Below are positions 2,842 to 10,927 of a stretch of DNA of 10,946 nucleotides, one piece after another. Both the position numbers and the translations under genes were made by a program. Under the pieces are notes generated by a model. That model saw only the letters and a list, made by a program, of their open reading frames with translations, was not told the DNA's origin and did not search any database. The stretch lies in the UHGV virus genome UHGV-0116491. One strand, written 5' to 3'. The stretch's first letter is position 1, and each line of letters opens with the position of its first letter. This DNA is from a virus.

Positions 2842-3480
2842 TCACTTCCCCTTCACACCAATGTTAGCGGCGGCGCGCTCGGCTTCACTTTGTTCCCAAA
2901 ACCACTTGTGAAGCTCCATAAGCTTTTCGTCAATCGGTGCATATTTGCGATTAAAGTAGGCCTGAGCATCTTTCTCAGATTCGTCCGGCAATTCGCCTGG
3001 GCCAAACAGTGTGTTATAAATCCATGCCAGTCCGCTTTTAGCGTCGCCAGTTGCCTGCCATTCGATAATCGCAGCCTGCATGACCAGAATGTTTTTCCCG
3101 ATTAATAGGTCCAGTTCTTTGAACCGGTTGCGGATGTATGCATTCTCGCTTTGTAATTTTGCGTTGCGCTTCTCTGCGGCTTCCAGCTTAACGCGCAGCT
3201 TCCCAACCGTTAGCGCAATATCCTCGTTCTCCTGGTCACGGCGTTTGATGTATTGCTGGTTTCTTTCCCGTTCATCCAGCAACGCCAGCACGGTTTCTGG
3301 TCCGGCCAGAAATTTGAAGGCGTTGAGCGCATCAATATCCACACCGTAATCTTTAAGTTCCTGTTCACTTATCAGATCATCATCAACTGGCAACATTAAC
3401 AGGCGTTCCATTGCCGGAATTGCACGTTCTGCCGCCTCACGCAGCGCCAGTGTGTCGATGTCGATGTCGATGTTGCTCAT
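2842..3480 (-). CDS. Ea22-like (ead/Ea22 family) early protein, 212 aa
   Basis: Starts MSNIDIDIDTLALREAAE...; acidic, coiled-coil-like composition typical of Ea22-like proteins. The ATG at 3480 overlaps the upstream stop as ATGA, so the track's upstream start (3504) is probably not used. Confidence 0.7.
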   Translation of the reverse strand: MSNIDIDIDTLALREAAERAIPAMERLLMLPVDDDLISEQELKDYGVDIDALNAFKFLAGPETVLALLDERERNQQYIKRRDQENEDIALTVGKLRVKLEAAEKRNAKLQSENAYIRNRFKELDLLIGKNILVMQAAIIEWQATGDAKSGLAWIYNTLFGPGELPDESEKDAQAYFNRKYAPIDEKLMELHKWFWEQSEAERAAANIGVKGK

Positions 3481-3710
3481 TGTGCCTCCTCGATTTCGTC
3501 CCATTCCACCCAGGCATTCTCTCCATCAGCATCGATTTCACCTTTGTGACCGCATTTGGAACAAACGGCCTCATCACCCGCCCACAAAGAATCTTTGGTT
3601 ACCGACCATCCTGTTACCTTGGCTTTGCCGTGCTGGCACTTAGGGCAATCATCAAGCCATTCGACTTCGACCGTTGAAGGACCAAATCCATGTTCAGTTC
3701 GGATGCTCAT
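3477..3710 (-). CDS. Small zinc-ribbon protein (77 aa)
   Basis: Two CxxC pairs (CPKC ... CSKC); ATG at 3710 overlaps the upstream stop as ATGA. Confidence 0.65.
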   Translation of the reverse strand: MSIRTEHGFGPSTVEVEWLDDCPKCQHGKAKVTGWSVTKDSLWAGDEAVCSKCGHKGEIDADGENAWVEWDEIEEAQ

Positions 3711-6666: not shown

Positions 6667-7359
6667 TTAATTGTGTCGCTTAAGGGTCTGTGACTGACTG
6701 ATTAAGACCTTTCCAAAGACCATAAACCGGTGTTCGTTTTCGCTGGTAATTCCCCATTCGCGGTAAATCTGATTATCAGAAATTACCAGCAGTTTATCAG
6801 GTATCATTTGCAGTCGTTTGACGTAAATTTTATCATCAAAACCAAATACATATATACCATCCCCATCAAACTGATTGATACTGATATCAACGAAGATGAG
6901 ATCTCCTGGCTCAATGGTTGGACACATACTGTCCCCACGAACGTTGATAACTTTAATGTGATTTGCTGGTCGTCCACCAAACATCGATACAGCATTATCA
7001 GTTCTGTATTCAATGGCATGAATCACATCAATGACATCACCGCCCTGGATAAGGCCATTTCCCGCACTGGCACTGACATCCAGCATTTCAATACGGAATA
7101 CATCCTTCACCTGCGCAACATCCTCACTAATACTGTTTTTACATACAGTATTACTTTTGAGGTCTGAGGTAAAGAGATCAGCAATATCAACACCTAAGCT
7201 CCTGGCAATATTACTCAGGGCTTGTTCAGTGAATTGTTTCTGCTTACCTGTTTCGAGGCGCGAGATATTCGCCGCATCCACTCCTATTGCTTCAGCGAGA
7301 TCGGCGATTTTCATGTTCTTCGCCTGGCGAAGTTGTCTGACTCGATTTCCTATGTTCAT
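6667..7359 (-). CDS. cI: CI-type prophage repressor: N-terminal XRE-family HTH plus C-terminal S24 (LexA-like) autopeptidase, 230 aa
   Basis: HTH region IADLAEAIGVDAANISRLETG; Ala-Gly cleavage site (SASAGNG); GDSM serine motif and downstream KRL lysine; divergent from a Cro-like gene. Confidence 0.9.
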   Translation of the reverse strand: MNIGNRVRQLRQAKNMKIADLAEAIGVDAANISRLETGKQKQFTEQALSNIARSLGVDIADLFTSDLKSNTVCKNSISEDVAQVKDVFRIEMLDVSASAGNGLIQGGDVIDVIHAIEYRTDNAVSMFGGRPANHIKVINVRGDSMCPTIEPGDLIFVDISINQFDGDGIYVFGFDDKIYVKRLQMIPDKLLVISDNQIYREWGITSENEHRFMVFGKVLISQSQTLKRHN

Positions 7360-7456: not shown

Positions 7457-7717
7457 ATGCAATCACCATTACGGAATGTGCGTAAGGCGCACGGATTTAC
7501 TTTGCAGCATGTTGCTGCGGGCGTTCAGGTCAATCCAGCGACGCTGAGTCGTATTGAAAGACTGGAACAAATTCCATCTATCGATCTTGCAGAACGTCTG
7601 GCCAATTTTTTTAAGGGTGAAATCAGCGAAATGCAGATTCTTTATCCGGCACGTTTTCAATCTAGCCAAAACCAGAATGGGTTTAAACCACAGGAACAGG
7701 AGGTAAGCCGTGGGTAA
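7457..7717 (+). CDS. cro: Cro-like HTH regulator (86 aa)
   Basis: ATG at 7457 with GGAGG 5 nt upstream; HTH region FTLQHVAAGVQVNPATLSRIER; divergent from the repressor gene. Confidence 0.8.
   Translation: MQSPLRNVRKAHGFTLQHVAAGVQVNPATLSRIERLEQIPSIDLAERLANFFKGEISEMQILYPARFQSSQNQNGFKPQEQEVSRG
7469..7669 (-). CDS. This -strand reading frame runs 201 nt (66 codons) without a stop; no product assigned
   Basis: An open frame of 201 nt on the - strand, long enough to be a gene and not just a gap between stop codons; no ribosome-binding site or similarity was checked. Confidence 0.3.
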   Translation of the reverse strand: MARLKTCRIKNLHFADFTLKKIGQTFCKIDRWNLFQSFNTTQRRWIDLNARSNMLQSKSVRLTHIP

Positions 7718-8261
7718 GCATCATTGGAAAGTGGAAAAACAACCCGAGTGGTACGTGAAAGCTGTCAGAAAAACTATCGCGGCATTGCCTAGGGGTTACG
7801 CTGAAGCTGCTGACTGGCTGGATGTAACAGAGAACGCTTTATTCAACCGCCTTCGTGCAGATGGCGATCAGATTTTCCCGCTGGGATGGGCAATGGTTTT
7901 ACAGCGCGCGGCTGGCACTCACTACATTGCGGATGCTGTCGCACAGTCTGCTGGTGGGGTGTTCGTATCGCTTCCTGAAATTGAGGAAGTAGAGAACGCC
8001 GATATAAACCAGCGCCTGCTGGAAGTCATCGAACAGATCGGGAATTACTCAAAGCAGATTCGTTCGGCAATCGAAGATGGGGTCGTGGAGCCACACGAGC
8101 AGACAGCAATTAATGATGAGTTGTATCTGTCAATTTCGAAGCTCCAGGAGCATGCAGCACTGGTCTACAAAATCTTCTGCGCTCCAGAAAAGAGTGACGC
8201 CCGCGAGTGTGCAGCTCCGGGCGTCGTGGCGTTTTGTGTCTGTGGAGAAACTAACGCATGA
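7710..8261 (+). CDS. CII-like phage regulatory protein (YdaT/CP76-like), 183 aa, GTG start
   Basis: GTG at 7710 with GGAGG 6 nt upstream, overlapping the Cro-like stop; position (third gene of the rightward operon) and size match CII/YdaT-type proteins; family assignment from memory. Confidence 0.65.
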   Translation: MGKHHWKVEKQPEWYVKAVRKTIAALPRGYAEAADWLDVTENALFNRLRADGDQIFPLGWAMVLQRAAGTHYIADAVAQSAGGVFVSLPEIEEVENADINQRLLEVIEQIGNYSKQIRSAIEDGVVEPHEQTAINDELYLSISKLQEHAALVYKIFCAPEKSDARECAAPGVVAFCVCGETNA

Positions 8262-8862
8262 ACAGTTTAACGGCAAATAACCGTTTGTCGCAACAGCTGG
8301 TGGTCAGTGTCGCTGAACACCTGTTGTTACGGCATGAATGCAGATTACCAAATCACTTGGCTGTAAGTAACCACAGAGAACTTTACCTGACTGTGGGGGG
8401 CGAGTTGTGCAGGAACTTAACCGCTGGTTTCGTGACGGAAGAGGGCTTTATGTCCATGTTATTCGTTGGGAGCCAGAAACACAGCGCGTTATCTATCTTC
8501 GCAAAGACTACCCGCATGAGTGCTTTAGTCCTTTGTGGAAATTCAGGCGTGATTTTGTTGAGTGTGAAGGACCACCAGCACATTGATTCTGCCATTCCGG
8601 GACGTTACACTGTTCAGGCACCTTATAAAGCGGGTGCCGGGCGTGGAAACCCGGAATTCACCAAAGCGCACAACCGCGCTCTTGCGGTTTTTTTGTGTAA
8701 TGAGCAGCATTACGCCCAAATTATGGTGGGGCGTGCAGGGCCAACTTCGGTTGGGCCGGGTTCTTTGGTGACCGGTATTTCCACCCCTGTACGTCTCACC
8801 ACCAATAAGGTCGTGGAAAGCCTTGGTGGTGAGTTATTAAAAATCACCAAAGAGGCTGCCAT
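8258..8862 (+). CDS. Unresolved ORF that overlaps the CII-like stop (ATGA) and runs in-frame into the Rha gene with no stop; either an N-terminal extension (full ORF 8258..9409, 383 aa) or a frameshifted / dual-coding segment
   Basis: ATG at 8258 with GGAG 10 nt upstream. Codon usage in 8585-8862 is strongly coding-like (all five Arg codons are CGT/CGC; ACC x6, GGT x5). No recognisable domain. Confidence 0.35.
8407..8586 (+). CDS. Alternative -1 frame ORF (59 aa, GTG start) inside the unresolved segment
   Basis: GTG at 8407, 6 nt after a G6 run; product VQELNRWFRDGRGLYVHVIRWEPETQRVIYLRKDYPHECFSPLWKFRRDFVECEGPPAH is protein-like, with 6 of 8 Arg codons CGT/CGC. Just under the ORF-track length threshold. 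Confidence 0.3.
   Translation: MQELNRWFRDGRGLYVHVIRWEPETQRVIYLRKDYPHECFSPLWKFRRDFVECEGPPAH
8672..8694 (+). terminator. Terminator-like hairpin plus T-tract inside the unresolved segment; contains a boxA-like CGCTCTT
   Basis: AACCGC-GCTCTT-GCGGTT followed by T5 (T7 in total); CGCTCTT at 8677-8683. Lies inside a frame that looks coding, so it may be coincidental. Confidence 0.3.
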
Positions 8863-8863
8863 C

Positions 8864-9409
8864 ATGGCTACGATCCCAACCCTCACTCAACCTGAAATTG
8901 CCATCGTTGATGGTCAGGCTGTTACTTCATCCTTGGCTGTTGCCAACTTCTTCTCCAAACGTCATGACGATGTACTGAAAAAGATCCGCACGCTTGAATG
9001 CTCTGCATCATTCACTTCCCGCAATTTTTCGGTGAGTGATTACACCGATTGCACAGGCCGCAAACTACCTTGCTATCAAATAACCCGCGACGGCTTTGCG
9101 TTTCTTGCTATGGGTTTCACGGGTAAACGTGCTGCCCAGTTCAAAGAGGCATACATCAATGCCTTTAACCAGATGGAGAAACAGCTTTCAAATCCCTCTG
9201 TACTGAGCGACGTTGCACATAACGCCAGCGTTCTCTATTCCTACATTTCATCAATTCATCAGGTCTGGCTGCAGCAGCTTTATCCTATGTTGGCAAAAGC
9301 CGAATCTCCGCTGGCTGTTAGCTTGTATGACTATATTAATGATGCTTCGGCGCTGGCCTGCCTCATAAATTTGTCGCTGAATCCTTCAGAGGTAAGGGGG
9401 CGCAAATGA
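8864..9409 (+). CDS. rha: Rha-family phage regulatory protein (181 aa)
   Basis: ATG at 8864 with AGAGG 8 nt upstream; N-terminal region (FFSKRHDDVLKKIRTLECSASFTSRNFSVSDYTDCTGRKLPCYQITRDGFAFLAMGFTGKRAAQFKEAYINAFNQME) matches the Rha domain pattern as I recall it, in its usual N-terminal position. Confidence 0.7.
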   Translation: MATIPTLTQPEIAIVDGQAVTSSLAVANFFSKRHDDVLKKIRTLECSASFTSRNFSVSDYTDCTGRKLPCYQITRDGFAFLAMGFTGKRAAQFKEAYINAFNQMEKQLSNPSVLSDVAHNASVLYSYISSIHQVWLQQLYPMLAKAESPLAVSLYDYINDASALACLINLSLNPSEVRGRK

Positions 9410-9630
9410 TCCGGAATATTTTCAAACGGTTTACCAATCAGACTTTCCGTTGTCCTCGTCCGGGTCAGTGGTACACCACACCTGCAGGACATGTTCTACG
9501 TGTTAGCCTGGTTGACCGTGAATGTCAGAAGGTGATTTGTGAACCGCTGGGCCGTAATTACCGCGTCAGTATGCCGCTTATAGCCTTTCGCTCCGGAAAA
9601 AACATGAAGCATCTCGGAGGTGCTGCATGA
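9406..9630 (+). CDS. Small hypothetical protein (74 aa)
   Basis: ATG overlaps the Rha stop (ATGA) and its own stop overlaps the next ATG (ATGA); consistent with translational coupling. Confidence 0.55.
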   Translation: MIRNIFKRFTNQTFRCPRPGQWYTTPAGHVLRVSLVDRECQKVICEPLGRNYRVSMPLIAFRSGKNMKHLGGAA

Positions 9631-10445
9631 GTATGGAGCTGATGGTTAAAGCGATGAAAATTCGAGTGGGTAATCCATTGCGAAAACTGGTTCTGATCAA
9701 GCTGGCTGATAATGCCAGCGATCAGGGGGAGTGCTGGCCCAGCTACCAGCATATTGCTGACCAGTGCGAGATTAGCAAACGTTCTGTGATGAATCATATT
9801 GCGGCCCTTTGTGAGTCCGGGCTAGTAAAAAAAGTCACTCGGAAAGGTGAAAAAGGTAACTCAAGTAATATCTATCTCCTTCATCTGGATGGTGCAGGAG
9901 ATTCACTAGGGGGTAGTGCAAATAATTCACTATCTGGTGCAGCAAATTCACCAGGTAGTGCAGGAGTTGCACCAGGGGGTAGTGCAGGAGATTCACCCAG
10001 AACCAGTCACTCTTTTGAACCAGTCAAAGAACCAGTCAATGAACCAATAGCTGTTGGTGCATCTGCTGATGAGTCTGTGCGAGTTCGTTCAAACCGACCG
10101 GAATACTCTCCGGAGTTTGAGCAGGCATGGCTGGCATATCCCAAACGTGCTGGTGGCAATTCAAAATCTGCAGCCTTCAAAGCCTGGAAAGCCCGTTTGA
10201 ATGAGGGGGTAAATCCCGAAACCATGCTGGAAGGTGTGAAACGCTATGCGGGCTGGGTATCTGCGATGGGTAACAGCGGCACACAATTTGTGAAACAGGC
10301 TGTCACGTTCTTTGGTCCGGATCGTCATTTCGAAGAATCCTGGGAAGTTCCTGCGGTATCTGCAGCCAGACGTGAGGACCCGTACTTCAAAGCCAGTTAC
10401 GACAACGTGGACTACAGCCAGATCCCGGCAGGATTCAGGGGGTGA
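9627..10445 (+). CDS. Lambda O-like replication initiator (N-terminal HTH), 272 aa
   Basis: N-terminal winged-HTH-like region (LRKLVLIKLADNASDQGECWPSYQHIADQCEISKRSVMNHIAALCESGLV); iteron-like direct repeats embedded mid-gene, as in lambda O. Confidence 0.75.
   Translation: MSMELMVKAMKIRVGNPLRKLVLIKLADNASDQGECWPSYQHIADQCEISKRSVMNHIAALCESGLVKKVTRKGEKGNSSNIYLLHLDGAGDSLGGSANNSLSGAANSPGSAGVAPGGSAGDSPRTSHSFEPVKEPVNEPIAVGASADESVRVRSNRPEYSPEFEQAWLAYPKRAGGNSKSAAFKAWKARLNEGVNPETMLEGVKRYAGWVSAMGNSGTQFVKQAVTFFGPDRHFEESWEVPAVSAARREDPYFKASYDNVDYSQIPAGFRG
9891..10038. repeat. Iteron-like direct repeats with internal dyad symmetry, then 3.5 tandem GAACCAGTCA units; candidate replication origin inside the O-like gene
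   Basis: 16-mers RGTGCAGSARWTKCAC at 9891-9906, 9936-9951, 9957-9972 and 9981-9996 (each GTGCA...TGCAC); GAACCAGTCA at 10000-10009, 10017-10026 and 10029-10038. Confidence 0.6.
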
Positions 10446-10447
10446 TC

Positions 10448-10927
10448 ATGAGCCTTATGAGTGAGATTCAAAAATTCATTGAAAGCAATCCTGGATGTAC
10501 GACCGGTGATATTGCGAACGCGTTTGCATACTTTCCACGTCCCCGTGTACTGAATACGACCAGTAAGTTACGCCAGTGCAGACGTGTCGCTTATCGCAGT
10601 GAAGGCAAAACACACAGGCATTTTTCTCGCAAGGCTGTATTGCCACCTGAGCCGGTGCTGAAACATATGAGTGTGGCCAGTAAAAGCTACGTCGGCACTA
10701 ATGATCAGCGGGTGATTTTGCGCCTGATTCAGCAGGCAGAAGATCTGGAGTCCAGAGGTTTATTCCGCCGGGCTGCAACGGTGTGGATGGAGGCATTCCG
10801 TGAAAGCCACTCCCAGCCAGAGCGAAACAATTTTCTTGCGCGTCGTGAACGGTGTTTACGGAAAAGCAGCAAGCGCGCTGTATCGGGTGATGAGTGGTAT
10901 CTGTCAGGGAATTACGTGGGGGCTTAA
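10448..10927 (+). CDS. PerC-like transcriptional regulator (159 aa)
   Basis: ATG at 10448 with a purine-rich RBS (CAGGGGG) 5 nt upstream; C-terminal LESRGLFRRAATVWMEAF resembles the PerC/ANR RRAA-x-W motif (from memory). Confidence 0.55.
   Translation: MSLMSEIQKFIESNPGCTTGDIANAFAYFPRPRVLNTTSKLRQCRRVAYRSEGKTHRHFSRKAVLPPEPVLKHMSVASKSYVGTNDQRVILRLIQQAEDLESRGLFRRAATVWMEAFRESHSQPERNNFLARRERCLRKSSKRAVSGDEWYLSGNYVGA

What the first reader, a model, noticed from the sequence alone, without database searches (positions are those of the whole stretch)
9891..10038. Candidate replication origin: dyad-symmetric iterons inside the O-like gene
Four 16-mers of the form RGTGCAGSARWTKCAC and three tandem GAACCAGTCA units lie in the middle of the replication initiator gene, encoding a low-complexity Gly/Ser/Ala/Pro linker. 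This mirrors lambda, where the ori iterons lie within O and are bound by the O N-terminal domain. It allows prediction of the origin and initiator specificity.
Basis: partly seen in the sequence, partly recalled or inferred. Interest (0 to 1): 0.45.

Follow-up and report, generated by a model that had tools for sequence, protein, structure and literature searches.

The report
Prophage replication origin inside initiator gene
The repeats are real and are almost certainly the replication origin of this lambda-like prophage, lying inside the gene of the protein that binds them; this layout is familiar from phage lambda, but beside the repeats is a DNA block conserved across many bacterial groups whose reader is unknown.

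Summary
There are five dyad-symmetric 15-19 bp repeats, not four, at 9892-9996, spaced 24/21/21/24 bp. Three exact GAACCAGTCA units follow at 10000-10038. All lie in the predicted disordered linker of a 272-aa replication initiator (9627-10445) that has an N-terminal winged-helix HTH_36 domain.

Comparative evidence supports a lambda-like origin:
- 72 of 77 homologues found without reference to the linker carry 3-7 repeats of their own at the same place. Spacing is 21-24 bp and the repeats are dyad-symmetric.
- In 43 of those 72 the copies are read in different reading frames, so the DNA is what is selected, not the peptide.
- Repeat sequence tracks the variable recognition-helix/wing half of the N-domain.
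- Natural chimeras move the N-domain and its repeats together onto other C-domains.
- Copy number ranges from 1 to 9 among near-identical alleles.

They belong to a 35-48 nt element that is nearly invariant from Escherichia to Pseudomonas and Shewanella, fixed even at synonymous sites, and translated in two or three frames.

The protein is not a sequence homologue of lambda O or P22 gp18. Nothing has been tested experimentally. I rate this a new member of a known kind, of moderate interest.

The parts
9627..10445 (+). Replication initiator gene (272 aa), the last replication-related gene of the early-right operon. Gene order is cI-like 6667-7359 (-), cro-like 7457-7717, cII/CP76-like 7710-8261, Rha/Ash 8258-9409, a 74-aa ORF 9406-9630, then this gene.
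   Evidence: Pfam HTH_36 E=1.8e-11 (44.1 bits, cutoff 25), with DnaD_N just below its cutoff. PHROG 270 'replication initiation protein' 1e-88. Genes 97-99% identical are annotated as replication protein in SfV, cdtI, mEp460, Ayreon and Stx2 phages.
9627..9881 (+). N-terminal winged-helix DNA-binding domain (aa 1-85). Residues 1-47 are nearly invariant in the family. Residues 48-85, the recognition helix and beta-hairpin wing, are variable.
   Evidence: AlphaFold2 pLDDT is 79-91, with helices 3-11, 17-28, 40-47 and 51-63 and strands 67-73 and 79-85. Foldseek returns only generic winged-helix matches, including DnaD-N 2v79.
9892..9906 (+). Iteron 1, GTGCAGGAGATTCAC
9916..9930 (+).
9937..9951 (+). 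Iteron 3, GTGCAGCAAATTCAC
9958..9972 (+). Iteron 4, GTGCAGGAGTTGCAC, the best dyad (GTGCA-N5-TGCAC)
9982..9996 (+). Iteron 5, GTGCAGGAGATTCAC. It ends 2 nt before the conserved element, as in most homologues.
9999..10050 (+). Family-wide conserved DNA element, AGAACCAGTCACTCTTTTGAACCAGTCAAAGAACCAGTCAATGAACC.... GAACCAGTCA units lie at 10000, 10017 and 10029, with a degenerate unit at 10041. It is a candidate unwinding or helicase-loading core, and it is also the junction at which modules are exchanged.
   Evidence: 69 of 77 homologues chosen without reference to the linker match the 35-nt core with at most 7 mismatches, and 12 match exactly. Synonymous sites are fixed: AGA 65/65, AGT 67/67, TCT 65/65. 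Unit 1 is read as R-T-S-H and units 2 and 3 as E-P-V. GC is 0.375-0.45 here. Averaged over 66 loci this is the least stable duplex stretch.
9848..9877 (+). A-rich stretch on the left flank of the iterons. It has the lowest duplex stability in the window's gene and is an alternative site for unwinding.
   Evidence: Nearest-neighbour dG is -33.9 kcal per 30 bp, against -38.4 at the conserved element. GC is 0.325-0.375.
10095..10442 (+). C-terminal helical domain (aa ~157-272), exchangeable between relatives. It is presumed to be the adaptor to the helicase system.
   Evidence: PHROG 26426, 1701 ('DnaD-like helicase loader') and 9327 ('primosomal protein') match only this half. There is no Pfam or PDB match. 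The 13 N-domain clusters are found in 21 different pairings with the 17 C-domain clusters.

Best explanation
Region 9892-~10050 is the origin of replication of a lambdoid prophage, embedded in the linker-coding part of its own initiator gene. Shown: there are five dyad-symmetric repeats about two helical turns apart. An adjacent conserved element follows them. Selection acts on the DNA rather than the peptide. The repeats are inherited together with the N-terminal winged-helix domain. Inferred: dimers of the 272-aa initiator bind each iteron through the recognition helix and wing (aa 48-85), one half-site per monomer with half-sites about 10 bp apart. The 21-24 bp phasing puts all dimers on one face of the helix, so the DNA wraps into an O-some-like complex. 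This strains and opens an adjacent stretch, most likely the conserved, moderately A+T-rich GAACCAGTCA element directly to the right. The C-terminal domain then brings in the replicative helicase. In this phage type that would be the host's DnaB(-DnaC), because no phage helicase or loader gene is present. Translation of the repeats yields a disordered Gly/Ser/Ala/Pro tether whose sequence is a passenger of the DNA.
For: (1) The repeats are far above chance: 5 matches against 0.07 expected.
(2) The gene is a replication initiator by family and by position in the pR-type operon. It is the only annotated replication protein in the early regions of the isolated phages mEp460 and cdtI, which share this module.
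(3) Among 77 homologues retrieved with N-terminal peptide patterns only, 72 have at least 3 copies of a 15-mer in the linker. Equal-length control stretches of the same genes never have more than 2. Spacings cluster at 21-24 bp, and the last copy typically ends about 2 nt before the conserved element.
(4) In 43 of those 72 the copies sit in more than one reading frame. For example GTGCAGGAGATTCAC is read as SAGDS in one frame and VQEIH in another, which a peptide repeat cannot explain.
(5) The 33 distinct iteron consensus sequences average 5.06 of 7 complementary pairs. Shuffles give 1.85 +/- 0.20 and never exceed 2.64.
(6) Iteron distance correlates with distance in the variable half of the N-domain (Mantel r=0.61, 0 of 2000 permutations) and much less with the constant half (r=0.20).
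(7) Natural chimeras P0064 and P0072 carry foreign N-domains with their own iterons on the window's C-domain. ZF40 gp14 joins this N-module to a C-domain similar to that of P22 gp18 (pairwise E=1e-6) and is likewise followed by a DnaB-type helicase. P22's origin is annotated inside gene 18.
(8) Copy number varies in whole iteron units among near-identical alleles: about 1, 2, 5, 7, 8 or 9 copies, and 8 in phage cdtI. Lambda-type Stx phages show the same kind of variation, 4 versus 6 iterons (PMC7466680).
(9) The geometry matches lambda, whose four 18-bp iterons are spaced 20, 24 and 23 bp in the middle of O.
(10) The iteron-coding stretch is predicted to be disordered.
Against: There is no experimental binding or replication data for this family in the literature I could search. 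The Eru papers state that nothing is known about replication of these Stx phage types (PMC8951638). There is no lambda-like strongly A+T-rich tract: the right flank is only 55-62% A+T, and in the window itself the least stable duplex lies to the left of the iterons. The iteron/N-domain correlation could partly reflect simple physical linkage. Some alleles with only 1-2 iterons persist in genomes. No DnaA boxes are enriched and no promoter-like site lies nearby.
Confidence: 0.8

Rival explanations
1. The repeats bind the initiator but act mainly in control, such as autoregulation, titration or handcuffing, or replicon incompatibility. DNA synthesis would start at another site in the phage.
For: Iterons in plasmids have such control roles (general knowledge; reviews PMC4980987 and PMC6090056 appeared in the search results, but I did not open them). 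No strong A+T-rich tract abuts the repeats. Copy number is very variable.
Against: The position and geometry match those of the lambda and P22 origins. The repeats sit at a fixed distance from a DNA element conserved across the whole family. No other repeat array or second copy of the iteron exists in the 10.9-kb window.
Confidence: 0.08
2. The repeats are only a by-product of a low-complexity, slippage-prone protein linker and have no function as DNA.
For: The encoded peptide is Gly/Ser/Ala/Pro-rich and predicted disordered. All five copies in the window are in one frame. Copy number changes in frame.
Against: In 43 of 72 homologues the same 15-mer is read in different frames. Dyad symmetry is strong across 33 unrelated repeat types. 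Spacing is held at 21-24 bp whatever the frame. Peptide sequences differ completely between lineages while the architecture is kept.
Confidence: 0.03
3. For the GAACCAGTCA element only: it is conserved as a short peptide motif (RTSHSFEPVxEP) that docks a host protein, or as a homology patch that promotes exchange of N- and C-terminal modules, or both. It would not be a working part of the origin.
For: The peptide is conserved in most homologues. Chimeras join exactly there. The 13 N-domain clusters occur in 21 pairings with 17 C-domain clusters. In E. coli genomes one hit consists of this 37-nt island alone (H130).
Against: Six of seven conserved residues use a single codon in 97-100% of 68 distinct sequences from hosts of very different G+C content. 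Conserved columns of the N-domain average a major-codon share of only 0.54. The 10-mer is read in different frames within one gene (window units 1 versus 2 and 3), after a 2-nt deletion in Shewanella loci, and in a third frame in mEp013. The element keeps a fixed distance from the last iteron.
Confidence: 0.3
4. The repeats are operators for another phage regulator, for example the Rha/Ash protein upstream or the PerC-like protein downstream.
For: Both neighbouring genes encode predicted DNA-binding regulators.
Against: Homologues keep the repeats while their neighbours differ. F451, ZF40, the Klebsiella phage and the Vibrio phages lack Rha/Ash or PerC at those positions. Repeat sequence follows the initiator's own N-domain.
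Confidence: 0.03

Closest known systems
Phage lambda ori-lambda inside gene O (O protein, Pfam Phage_rep_O); also the lambda-type Stx phages 933W and P27 with 6 iterons
   Same: The initiator gene lies in the pR operon after cII. Four to six dyad-symmetric 18-19 bp iterons, spaced 20-24 bp, lie in the middle of the gene and encode an interdomain linker. The N-domain binds the iterons and the C-domain recruits the helicase system. Iteron number varies between relatives and lengthens the protein (PMC7466680).
   Different: There is no detectable sequence similarity between the proteins (hhalign probability 1.4%), and the window protein gave no Phage_rep_O hit at E<=0.01. No P gene follows in this phage type. 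Lambda's strongly A/T-rich tract to the right of the iterons is replaced by a sequence-conserved, only moderately A+T-rich element with GAACCAGTCA repeats.
Phage P22 gene 18 origin, and the predicted origin in phage L gene 18
   Same: The origin is annotated inside the initiator gene (rep_origin 32840-32984), with lineage-specific repeats (PMC8022706 / bioRxiv 10.1101/2020.10.05.325894). The C-domain of the family member ZF40 gp14 is similar to the P22 gp18 C-domain, and both are followed by a DnaB-type helicase. P22 and lambda share a conserved stretch to the right of their differing iterons. That is the same logic as here: variable iterons next to a conserved core.
   Different: The window protein shows no significant similarity to gp18. 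The repeat sequences differ. The window has no helicase gene.
DnaD-like replisome organisers of Gram-positive phages (for example SPP1 G38P), whose origins lie within their own genes (from my own knowledge)
   Same: They have a winged-helix N-domain of DnaD-N type. Here Pfam DnaD_N scores 24.3 bits against a cutoff of 27, and Foldseek lists 2v79 among many generic winged-helix matches. In both, repeats lie inside the organiser gene.
   Different: There is no DnaD C-terminal (DnaB_2) domain. The hosts are Gammaproteobacteria. The DnaD_N match is below the Pfam threshold.
Iteron plasmid origins (RK2 TrfA, F RepE, pPS10 RepA), with repeated motifs in the unwinding element that are read as ssDNA by the initiator
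   Same: Directly repeated initiator sites about 22 bp apart lie next to an unwinding element that carries its own short direct repeats. According to its abstract, PMC4081077 concerns sequence-specific Rep-ssDNA contacts in the AT-rich region. That is a precedent for a sequence-specific GAACCAGTCA core.
   Different: The window protein is not a Rep_3 / WH1-WH2 protein. The iterons here are dyads inside a coding region. No DnaA box is associated.
Eru6-type 'non-lambdoid' replication region of Stx phages (Stx2a_WGPS2, AP012537)
   Same: The gene is 98.7% identical at the DNA level (H18-H20). The module order is the same: Rha/Ash protein followed by an HTH_36 protein (PMC8951638).
   Different: That work classifies the gene content only. 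It mentions no iterons or origin and states that the replication proteins of Eru phages are unstudied.

Membership tests
Lambdoid 'origin inside the initiator gene' architecture (lambda, P22, phi80, 82) | The initiator gene lies in the early-right operon downstream of cro/cII | tested here: met
   The order is cI-like (-), cro-like, cII/CP76-like, Rha/Ash, a 74-aa ORF, then the initiator.
Lambdoid 'origin inside the initiator gene' architecture (lambda, P22, phi80, 82) | At least 3-4 dyad-symmetric repeats of about 15-19 bp, about two helical turns apart, in the middle of the gene | tested here: met
   There are five copies spaced 24/21/21/24 bp, against 0.07 expected. Each copy forms 4-5 of 7 complementary pairs. 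Lambda's spacings are 20/24/23 bp.
Lambdoid 'origin inside the initiator gene' architecture (lambda, P22, phi80, 82) | The repeats encode a flexible interdomain linker | tested here: met
   pLDDT is below 50 for residues 92-156, between a confident N-domain and a helical C-domain.
Lambdoid 'origin inside the initiator gene' architecture (lambda, P22, phi80, 82) | Repeat sequence is specific to the initiator's N-domain (cognate pairs) | tested here: met
   Mantel r=0.61 with the variable half of the N-domain. Chimeras carry the N-domain and its iterons together. This is correlative only.
Lambdoid 'origin inside the initiator gene' architecture (lambda, P22, phi80, 82) | A strongly A+T-rich unwinding tract lies immediately to the right of the iterons | tested here: inconclusive
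   GC is 0.375-0.45 at 10000-10050. Averaged over 66 loci this is the least stable stretch, but in the window itself the minimum lies to the left of the iterons. There is nothing like lambda's run of A residues.
Lambdoid 'origin inside the initiator gene' architecture (lambda, P22, phi80, 82) | The initiator binds the repeats, and the fragment supports initiator-dependent replication | not testable with these tools
   This needs EMSA or footprinting and a plasmid replication assay.
Lambda O protein family (Pfam PF04492 Phage_rep_O) | Sequence homology to the lambda O N-terminal domain | tested here: not met
   No PF04492 hit at E<=0.01. hhalign against lambda O gives probability 1.4%.
Lambda O protein family (Pfam PF04492 Phage_rep_O) | A partner P-type helicase loader is encoded immediately downstream | tested here: not met
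   The downstream gene is PerC-like. No P, DnaC or DnaB gene is annotated in the early regions of cdtI or mEp460. A Klebsiella phage relative does carry a lambda-P homologue.
HTH_36 / PHROG 270 phage replication initiators | Pfam HTH_36 above the gathering score, and a PHROG 270 match over the full length | tested here: met
   HTH_36 scores 44.1 bits against a cutoff of 25. PHROG 270 gives E=1.1e-88 over residues 3-271.
DnaD-like replisome organisers | A DnaD N-terminal domain together with a DnaD/DnaB_2 C-terminal domain | tested here: not met
   DnaD_N scores 24.3 bits, below the 27-bit cutoff. The C-domain has no Pfam match and no PDB sequence match.
Iteron-plasmid Rep proteins (Rep_3, WH1-WH2) | A Rep_3-type double winged-helix initiator | tested here: not met
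   No Rep_3 hit. The model has a single winged-helix domain.

The most novel reading that the evidence does not exclude
The nearly invariant 35-48 nt block to the right of the iterons would be a sequence-specific origin core shared by a very large family of prophage replicons across Gammaproteobacteria. This is AGAACCAGTCACTCTTTTGAACCAGTCAAtGAACC, whose GAACCAGTCA units are translated in two or three different frames. It would be a defined unwinding or helicase-loading site read by the invariant half of the initiator (aa 1-47) or by a common host factor. Specificity would reside only in the neighbouring iterons. That would be a two-part origin code, with a variable address and a universal start site. 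It would also explain how one N-terminal module can work with lambda-P-type, DnaB-type, DnaC/DnaB-type, primase-helicase or host-only helicase systems.
Probability: 0.4. Interest if true: 0.65.

Novelty: new member of a known kind. Interest (0 to 1): 0.45.

Why it matters
This initiator gene is present nearly full-length in 897 of 5,426 complete E. coli genomes. It also occurs in cdt-, serotype- and Shiga-toxin-converting phages: cdtI, SfV, and Stx2 phages including the Eru6 type. The authors who typed those Stx phages say nothing is known about their replication (PMC8951638).

Locating the origin and the specificity determinants makes several things directly testable:
- which prophages can cross-activate or exclude each other's replication;
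- how toxin gene dosage rises after induction;
- how a single phage protein recruits the host helicase without a P-like loader.

Across the family, this is a clean natural experiment of DNA function overriding coding, since the repeats and the core element are kept across reading frames. It also yields a simple rule for predicting origins in thousands of prophages: a winged-helix HTH_36 domain, then 3-9 dyads at 21-24 bp spacing, then GAACCAGTCA.

Tried and rejected
- Sequence relationship to lambda O and P22 gp18: none by hhalign. A Klebsiella phage relative that is followed by a lambda-P homologue shows no BLASTP similarity to lambda O either.
- Identity of the C-terminal domain: no Pfam hit even at E<=10. 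No PDB sequence match with either the single sequence or the profile. Foldseek found only generic winged-helix matches to the N-domain, with E>=0.0096.
- DnaA boxes: 22 matches against 23.7 expected, and none in the origin.
- Promoter or terminator near the origin: no promoter-like site, and terminator-like sites at the chance level.
- RNA explanation for the conserved element: no Rfam family there. Single-strand folding of 9885-10060 gives z=-0.99.
- Programmed -1 frameshift at UCU UUU GAA, which would give an immediate UGA: considered and rejected, because many homologues carry TCT or CTT in place of TTT.
- A GAAYCAGTCA motif shared with P22: P22 has one copy inside its annotated origin. On inspection it looks like a degenerate copy of P22's own CGGTAAAAC repeat, so I do not count it as a shared motif.
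- Cluster-level association of iteron type with N- versus C-domain clusters: adjusted mutual information 0.72 against 0.66. This is not discriminating, because lineages co-inherit both halves.
- Literature: seven searches found no description of iterons or an origin for this family. The SfV genome paper is not held, so an earlier mention there cannot be excluded.
Full report
**1. The observation**

The window is the early region of a lambdoid prophage. On the left arm are an excisionase and an exonuclease. These are followed by:
- an S24/HTH cI-like repressor at 6667-7359 (-);
- a cro-like HTH protein at 7457-7717;
- a cII/CP76-like protein at 7710-8261;
- a Rha/Ash regulator at 8258-9409;
- a 74-aa ORF at 9406-9630;
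- a 272-aa ORF at 9627-10445;
- a PerC/ANR-like gene at 10442-10927.

The 16-mer RGTGCANNARWTKCAC, allowing one mismatch, occurs five times. All copies are on the + strand, at 9891, 9915, 9936, 9957 and 9981. The shuffle mean is 0.07 and no shuffle out of 200 reaches five.

Spacing is 24/21/21/24 bp. With flanks, the unit is a 19-bp dyad, T-R-GTGCA-N5-TKCAC-Y-A. GAACCAGTCA occurs exactly at 10000, 10017 and 10029 and nowhere else in the window.

**2. The gene**

The protein has a Pfam HTH_36 domain (residues 17-67, above the cutoff), with DnaD_N just below its cutoff. It matches PHROG 270 'replication initiation protein' over its full length at 1e-88. Other PHROGs match only the N-half or only the C-half, which is a signature of a two-module protein.

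AlphaFold2 on a 27-sequence alignment gives three regions:
- a confident winged helix at residues 1-85 (pLDDT 79-91);
- a disordered stretch at 92-156, which is what the iterons and the GAACCAGTCA units encode;
- a moderately confident helical C-domain at 162-229.

Foldseek finds only generic winged-helix folds such as MarR, PadR, TFE and DnaD-N. Profile comparison finds no similarity to lambda O or P22 gp18. The protein is therefore 'O-like' in position and architecture, not in sequence.

Genes 97-99% identical at the DNA level occur in phages SfV, cdtI, mEp460, Ayreon, 2H10, 1720a-02 and Stx2 phages. These include Stx2a_WGPS2, the type phage of 'Eru6' (PMC8951638). The gene is nearly full-length in 897 of 5,426 complete E. 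coli genomes.

**3. Homologues keep repeats at the same place, each with its own sequence**

Thirteen relatives found by tblastn were examined, from E. coli, Salmonella, Aeromonas, Vibrio, Klebsiella and Pectobacterium phages. Each carries its own dyad repeats just after the winged helix. Examples are:
- GTGAYnnnnTGTCAC in Vibrio phage D67;
- GGGGCAGGAGCTGCCC in Stx2a_F451;
- the same type seven times in Stx2_EH2085;
- TATGCCAnCnGATGGCAC in the Klebsiella phage;
- GGTGACAGAGAGTCAC in Vibrio phage D79.

I then retrieved 80 loci from one-genome-per-species contigs using only N-terminal peptide patterns (SMxLM[VA][KQ]AM and KLVL[IL]KLAD). This sampling is independent of the linker. Of 77 usable genes, from Pseudomonas, Shewanella, Aeromonas, Xenorhabdus, Marinomonas, Providencia and others:
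- 72 have 3-7 copies of a 15-mer (at most 3 mismatches) in the linker;
- equal-length control stretches of the same genes never exceed 2 copies;
- spacings are 21 (70 cases), 22 (38), 23 (29) and 24 bp (60), or about 45 bp where one copy is degenerate;
- the last spacing is 24 bp in 46 of the 72.

The 33 distinct consensus 15-mers average 5.06 of 7 complementary pairs, against 1.85 +/- 0.20 in shuffles. The outer GTG...CAC triplets are common to most of them. Positions 4, 6-10 and 12 vary.

**4. The DNA is selected, not the peptide**

In 43 of the 72 loci the copies lie in more than one reading frame, with spacings of 22 or 23 bp. For instance GTGCAGGAGATTCAC is translated as S-A-G-D-S in one copy and V-Q-E-I-H in another copy of the same gene. 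A peptide-repeat or slippage explanation cannot account for this. In the window itself all five copies happen to be in one frame.

**5. The repeats go with the DNA-reading half of the N-domain**

Residues 1-47 are nearly invariant across the family. Residues 48-85, the recognition helix and wing, vary. Distance between iteron consensus sequences correlates with distance in the variable half (Mantel r=0.61, 0 of 2000 permutations). The correlation with the constant half is much weaker (r=0.20). Helices of the type S(K/R)S(A/T)VR-H go with TGCC...GGCA-type repeats. Helices of the K/RRSV type go with GTGnA...TnCAC.

Physical linkage contributes to this correlation, so natural chimeras carry more weight:
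- P0064 carries an F451-type N-domain and GGGGCAG-type repeats on the window's C-domain.
- P0072 does the same with a Klebsiella-type N-domain and TGCC-type repeats.
- In a viral-contig sample, the 13 N-domain clusters occur in 21 different pairings with 17 C-domain clusters.
- ZF40 gp14 joins this N-module to a C-domain similar to that of P22 gp18 (pairwise E=1e-6), and both are followed by a DnaB-type helicase. P22's origin is annotated inside gene 18.

The same N-module is found upstream of four kinds of partner gene:
- a lambda-P homologue in a Klebsiella phage;
- a DnaB-like helicase in ZF40;
- a Toprim primase-helicase in F451;
- a DnaC-like plus DnaB-like pair in AsXd-1.

In the window's own phage type there is no helicase or loader gene at all. 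This fits a model in which the N-domain with its repeats recognises the origin and the C-domain is the adaptor to the helicase system.

**6. Copy number varies**

Phage cdtI carries an exact 66-bp duplication of three iterons, giving eight. By my reading of the linker peptides, near-identical alleles in the protein collection have about 1, 2, 5, 7, 8 or 9 iterons. The five-iteron form is by far the commonest, with a cluster of 2,852 member sequences. The number of GAACCAGTCA/EPV units ranges from 2 to 4. Lambda-type Stx phages differ from lambda in the same way, with 6 iterons against 4 and 13 extra residues (PMC7466680).

**7. The GAACCAGTCA units are something else**

They are not specific to this lineage. 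The 35-nt block AGAACCAGTCACTCTTTTGAACCAGTCAATGAACC follows the last iteron in 69 of the 77 independently sampled genes with at most 7 mismatches. Twelve copies are exact. The block is kept even in high-G+C Pseudomonas. An exact 25-nt core retrieved at least 120 viral contigs, which yielded 101 different proteins.

Codon usage shows direct constraint on the DNA:
- In conserved amino-acid columns of the N-domain, the commonest codon accounts for 54% of sequences on average, and 3.55 codons are used per column.
- In the element, Arg is AGA in 65/65, Ser is AGT in 67/67, Ser is TCT in 65/65, both Glu are GAA, and Val is GTC in 97%.
- The difference is significant (Mann-Whitney p=5e-4).

The 10-mer is also read in different frames:
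- In the window, unit 1 gives R-T-S-H and units 2 and 3 give E-P-V.
- Three Shewanella loci have a 2-nt deletion, so both units are read E-P-V.
- Aliivibrio loci read RTSH-RTSQ-LEPV.
- mEp013 reads AACCAGTCA as N-Q-S.

The element is therefore a DNA-level feature. It is moderately A+T-rich (GC 0.375-0.45). Averaged over 66 loci it is the least stable 30-bp stretch within +/-420 bp, with a second dip to the left of the iterons. In the window itself the left dip, at 9848-9877, is the deeper one.

Lambda and P22 likewise share a conserved stretch to the right of iterons that differ between them. By analogy, I take the element to be the origin core where opening or helicase loading occurs. What reads it is unknown. 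A role as a homology patch for module exchange, or as a peptide motif, is not excluded (confidence 0.3).

**8. Mechanism, with shown and inferred steps kept apart**

Shown:
- the repeat array, its dyad symmetry and its phasing;
- its position in a disordered linker of a winged-helix initiator;
- DNA-level selection;
- co-inheritance with the N-domain;
- the adjacent conserved element;
- the absence of a phage helicase or loader gene in this phage type.

Inferred:
- Initiator dimers occupy the five dyads on one face of the helix.
- The DNA is wrapped as in the lambda O-some.
- The flanking element opens.
- The C-domain recruits host DnaB(-DnaC).
- Transcription from the pR-type promoter through the gene may assist, as in lambda.

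**9. Novelty and limits**

The principle is textbook for lambda and P22, and has been predicted for other gene-18 types (PMC8022706). I found no description of the origin or iterons of this HTH_36 family in the searchable literature. The Eru papers do not mention them. The SfV genome paper could not be read, so an earlier mention there is possible.

I therefore file the finding as a new member of a known kind. The family-wide element, conserved independently of reading frame, is the part that could be new. No binding or replication experiment exists.

Noticed in passing
window 8618-8694 (+) and 8719-8806 (+): Rfam hits above the gathering score to isrK Hfq-binding RNA (67 bits) and C4 antisense RNA (83.6 bits). 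Both lie inside the 5' half of the 383-aa Rha/Ash ORF 8258-9409. This suggests a P1/P7-type C4-controlled antirepressor module, and the annotated ORF start may be too far upstream: PHROG 821 matches only residues 61-383.
   Followed up: no
window 9999-10050; loci L014-L213: A 35-48 nt DNA block with GAACCAGTCA units is nearly invariant across phage and prophage initiator genes of Enterobacterales, Vibrio, Aeromonas, Shewanella, Pseudomonas and Marinomonas. It is fixed at synonymous sites and read in 2-3 frames. What reads it is unknown.
   Followed up: yes
L215 (P22) 914-923: P22 has a single GAATCAGTCA in 4.5 kb, and it lies inside the annotated rep_origin just after the repeats (4 of 200 shuffles have any match). 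It resembles a degenerate copy of P22's own CGGTAAAAC repeat, so it is probably a coincidence.
   Followed up: partly
proteins P0039, P0036, P0042 (alleles of window 9627-10445): Some alleles in genomes have internal deletions. P0039 lacks iteron 5 and the whole conserved element; the deletion ends at the GGTGCA half-site at window 10056. P0036 lacks the wing of the N-domain. P0042 keeps one iteron. These are probably decaying prophages.
   Followed up: partly
window 10370-10445; hits H116, H125, H126: E. coli K-12 lineage strains (C600, HB101, TUM1509) match only the last 76 nt of the gene, next to yfdN, a PerC-family gene. This looks like a remnant of such a replication module in the CPS-53/KpLE1 cryptic prophage; the prophage assignment is from my own knowledge.
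   Followed up: no
L009 (ZF40) 1501-2271 versus L215 (P22) 489-1304: The C-terminal ~95 residues of ZF40 gp14 align with the C-terminus of P22 gp18 (pairwise E=1e-6). Both are followed by a DnaB-type helicase, while the N-domains and repeats are unrelated. This is a natural swap of origin-recognition modules.
   Followed up: partly
window 7010-7039 and 3453-3473: Two short tandem repeats: TCAATGACA x3.3 inside the cI-like gene, and TGTCGA x3.5 near the 5' end of ORF 2842-3504 (-).
   Followed up: no
hit H130 (NZ_CM172609.1 4799766-4799802): In one E. coli genome the only match to the gene is a 37-nt island at query positions 371-407 (97% identical). This is the conserved element alone, inside another HTH-domain gene.
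   Followed up: no
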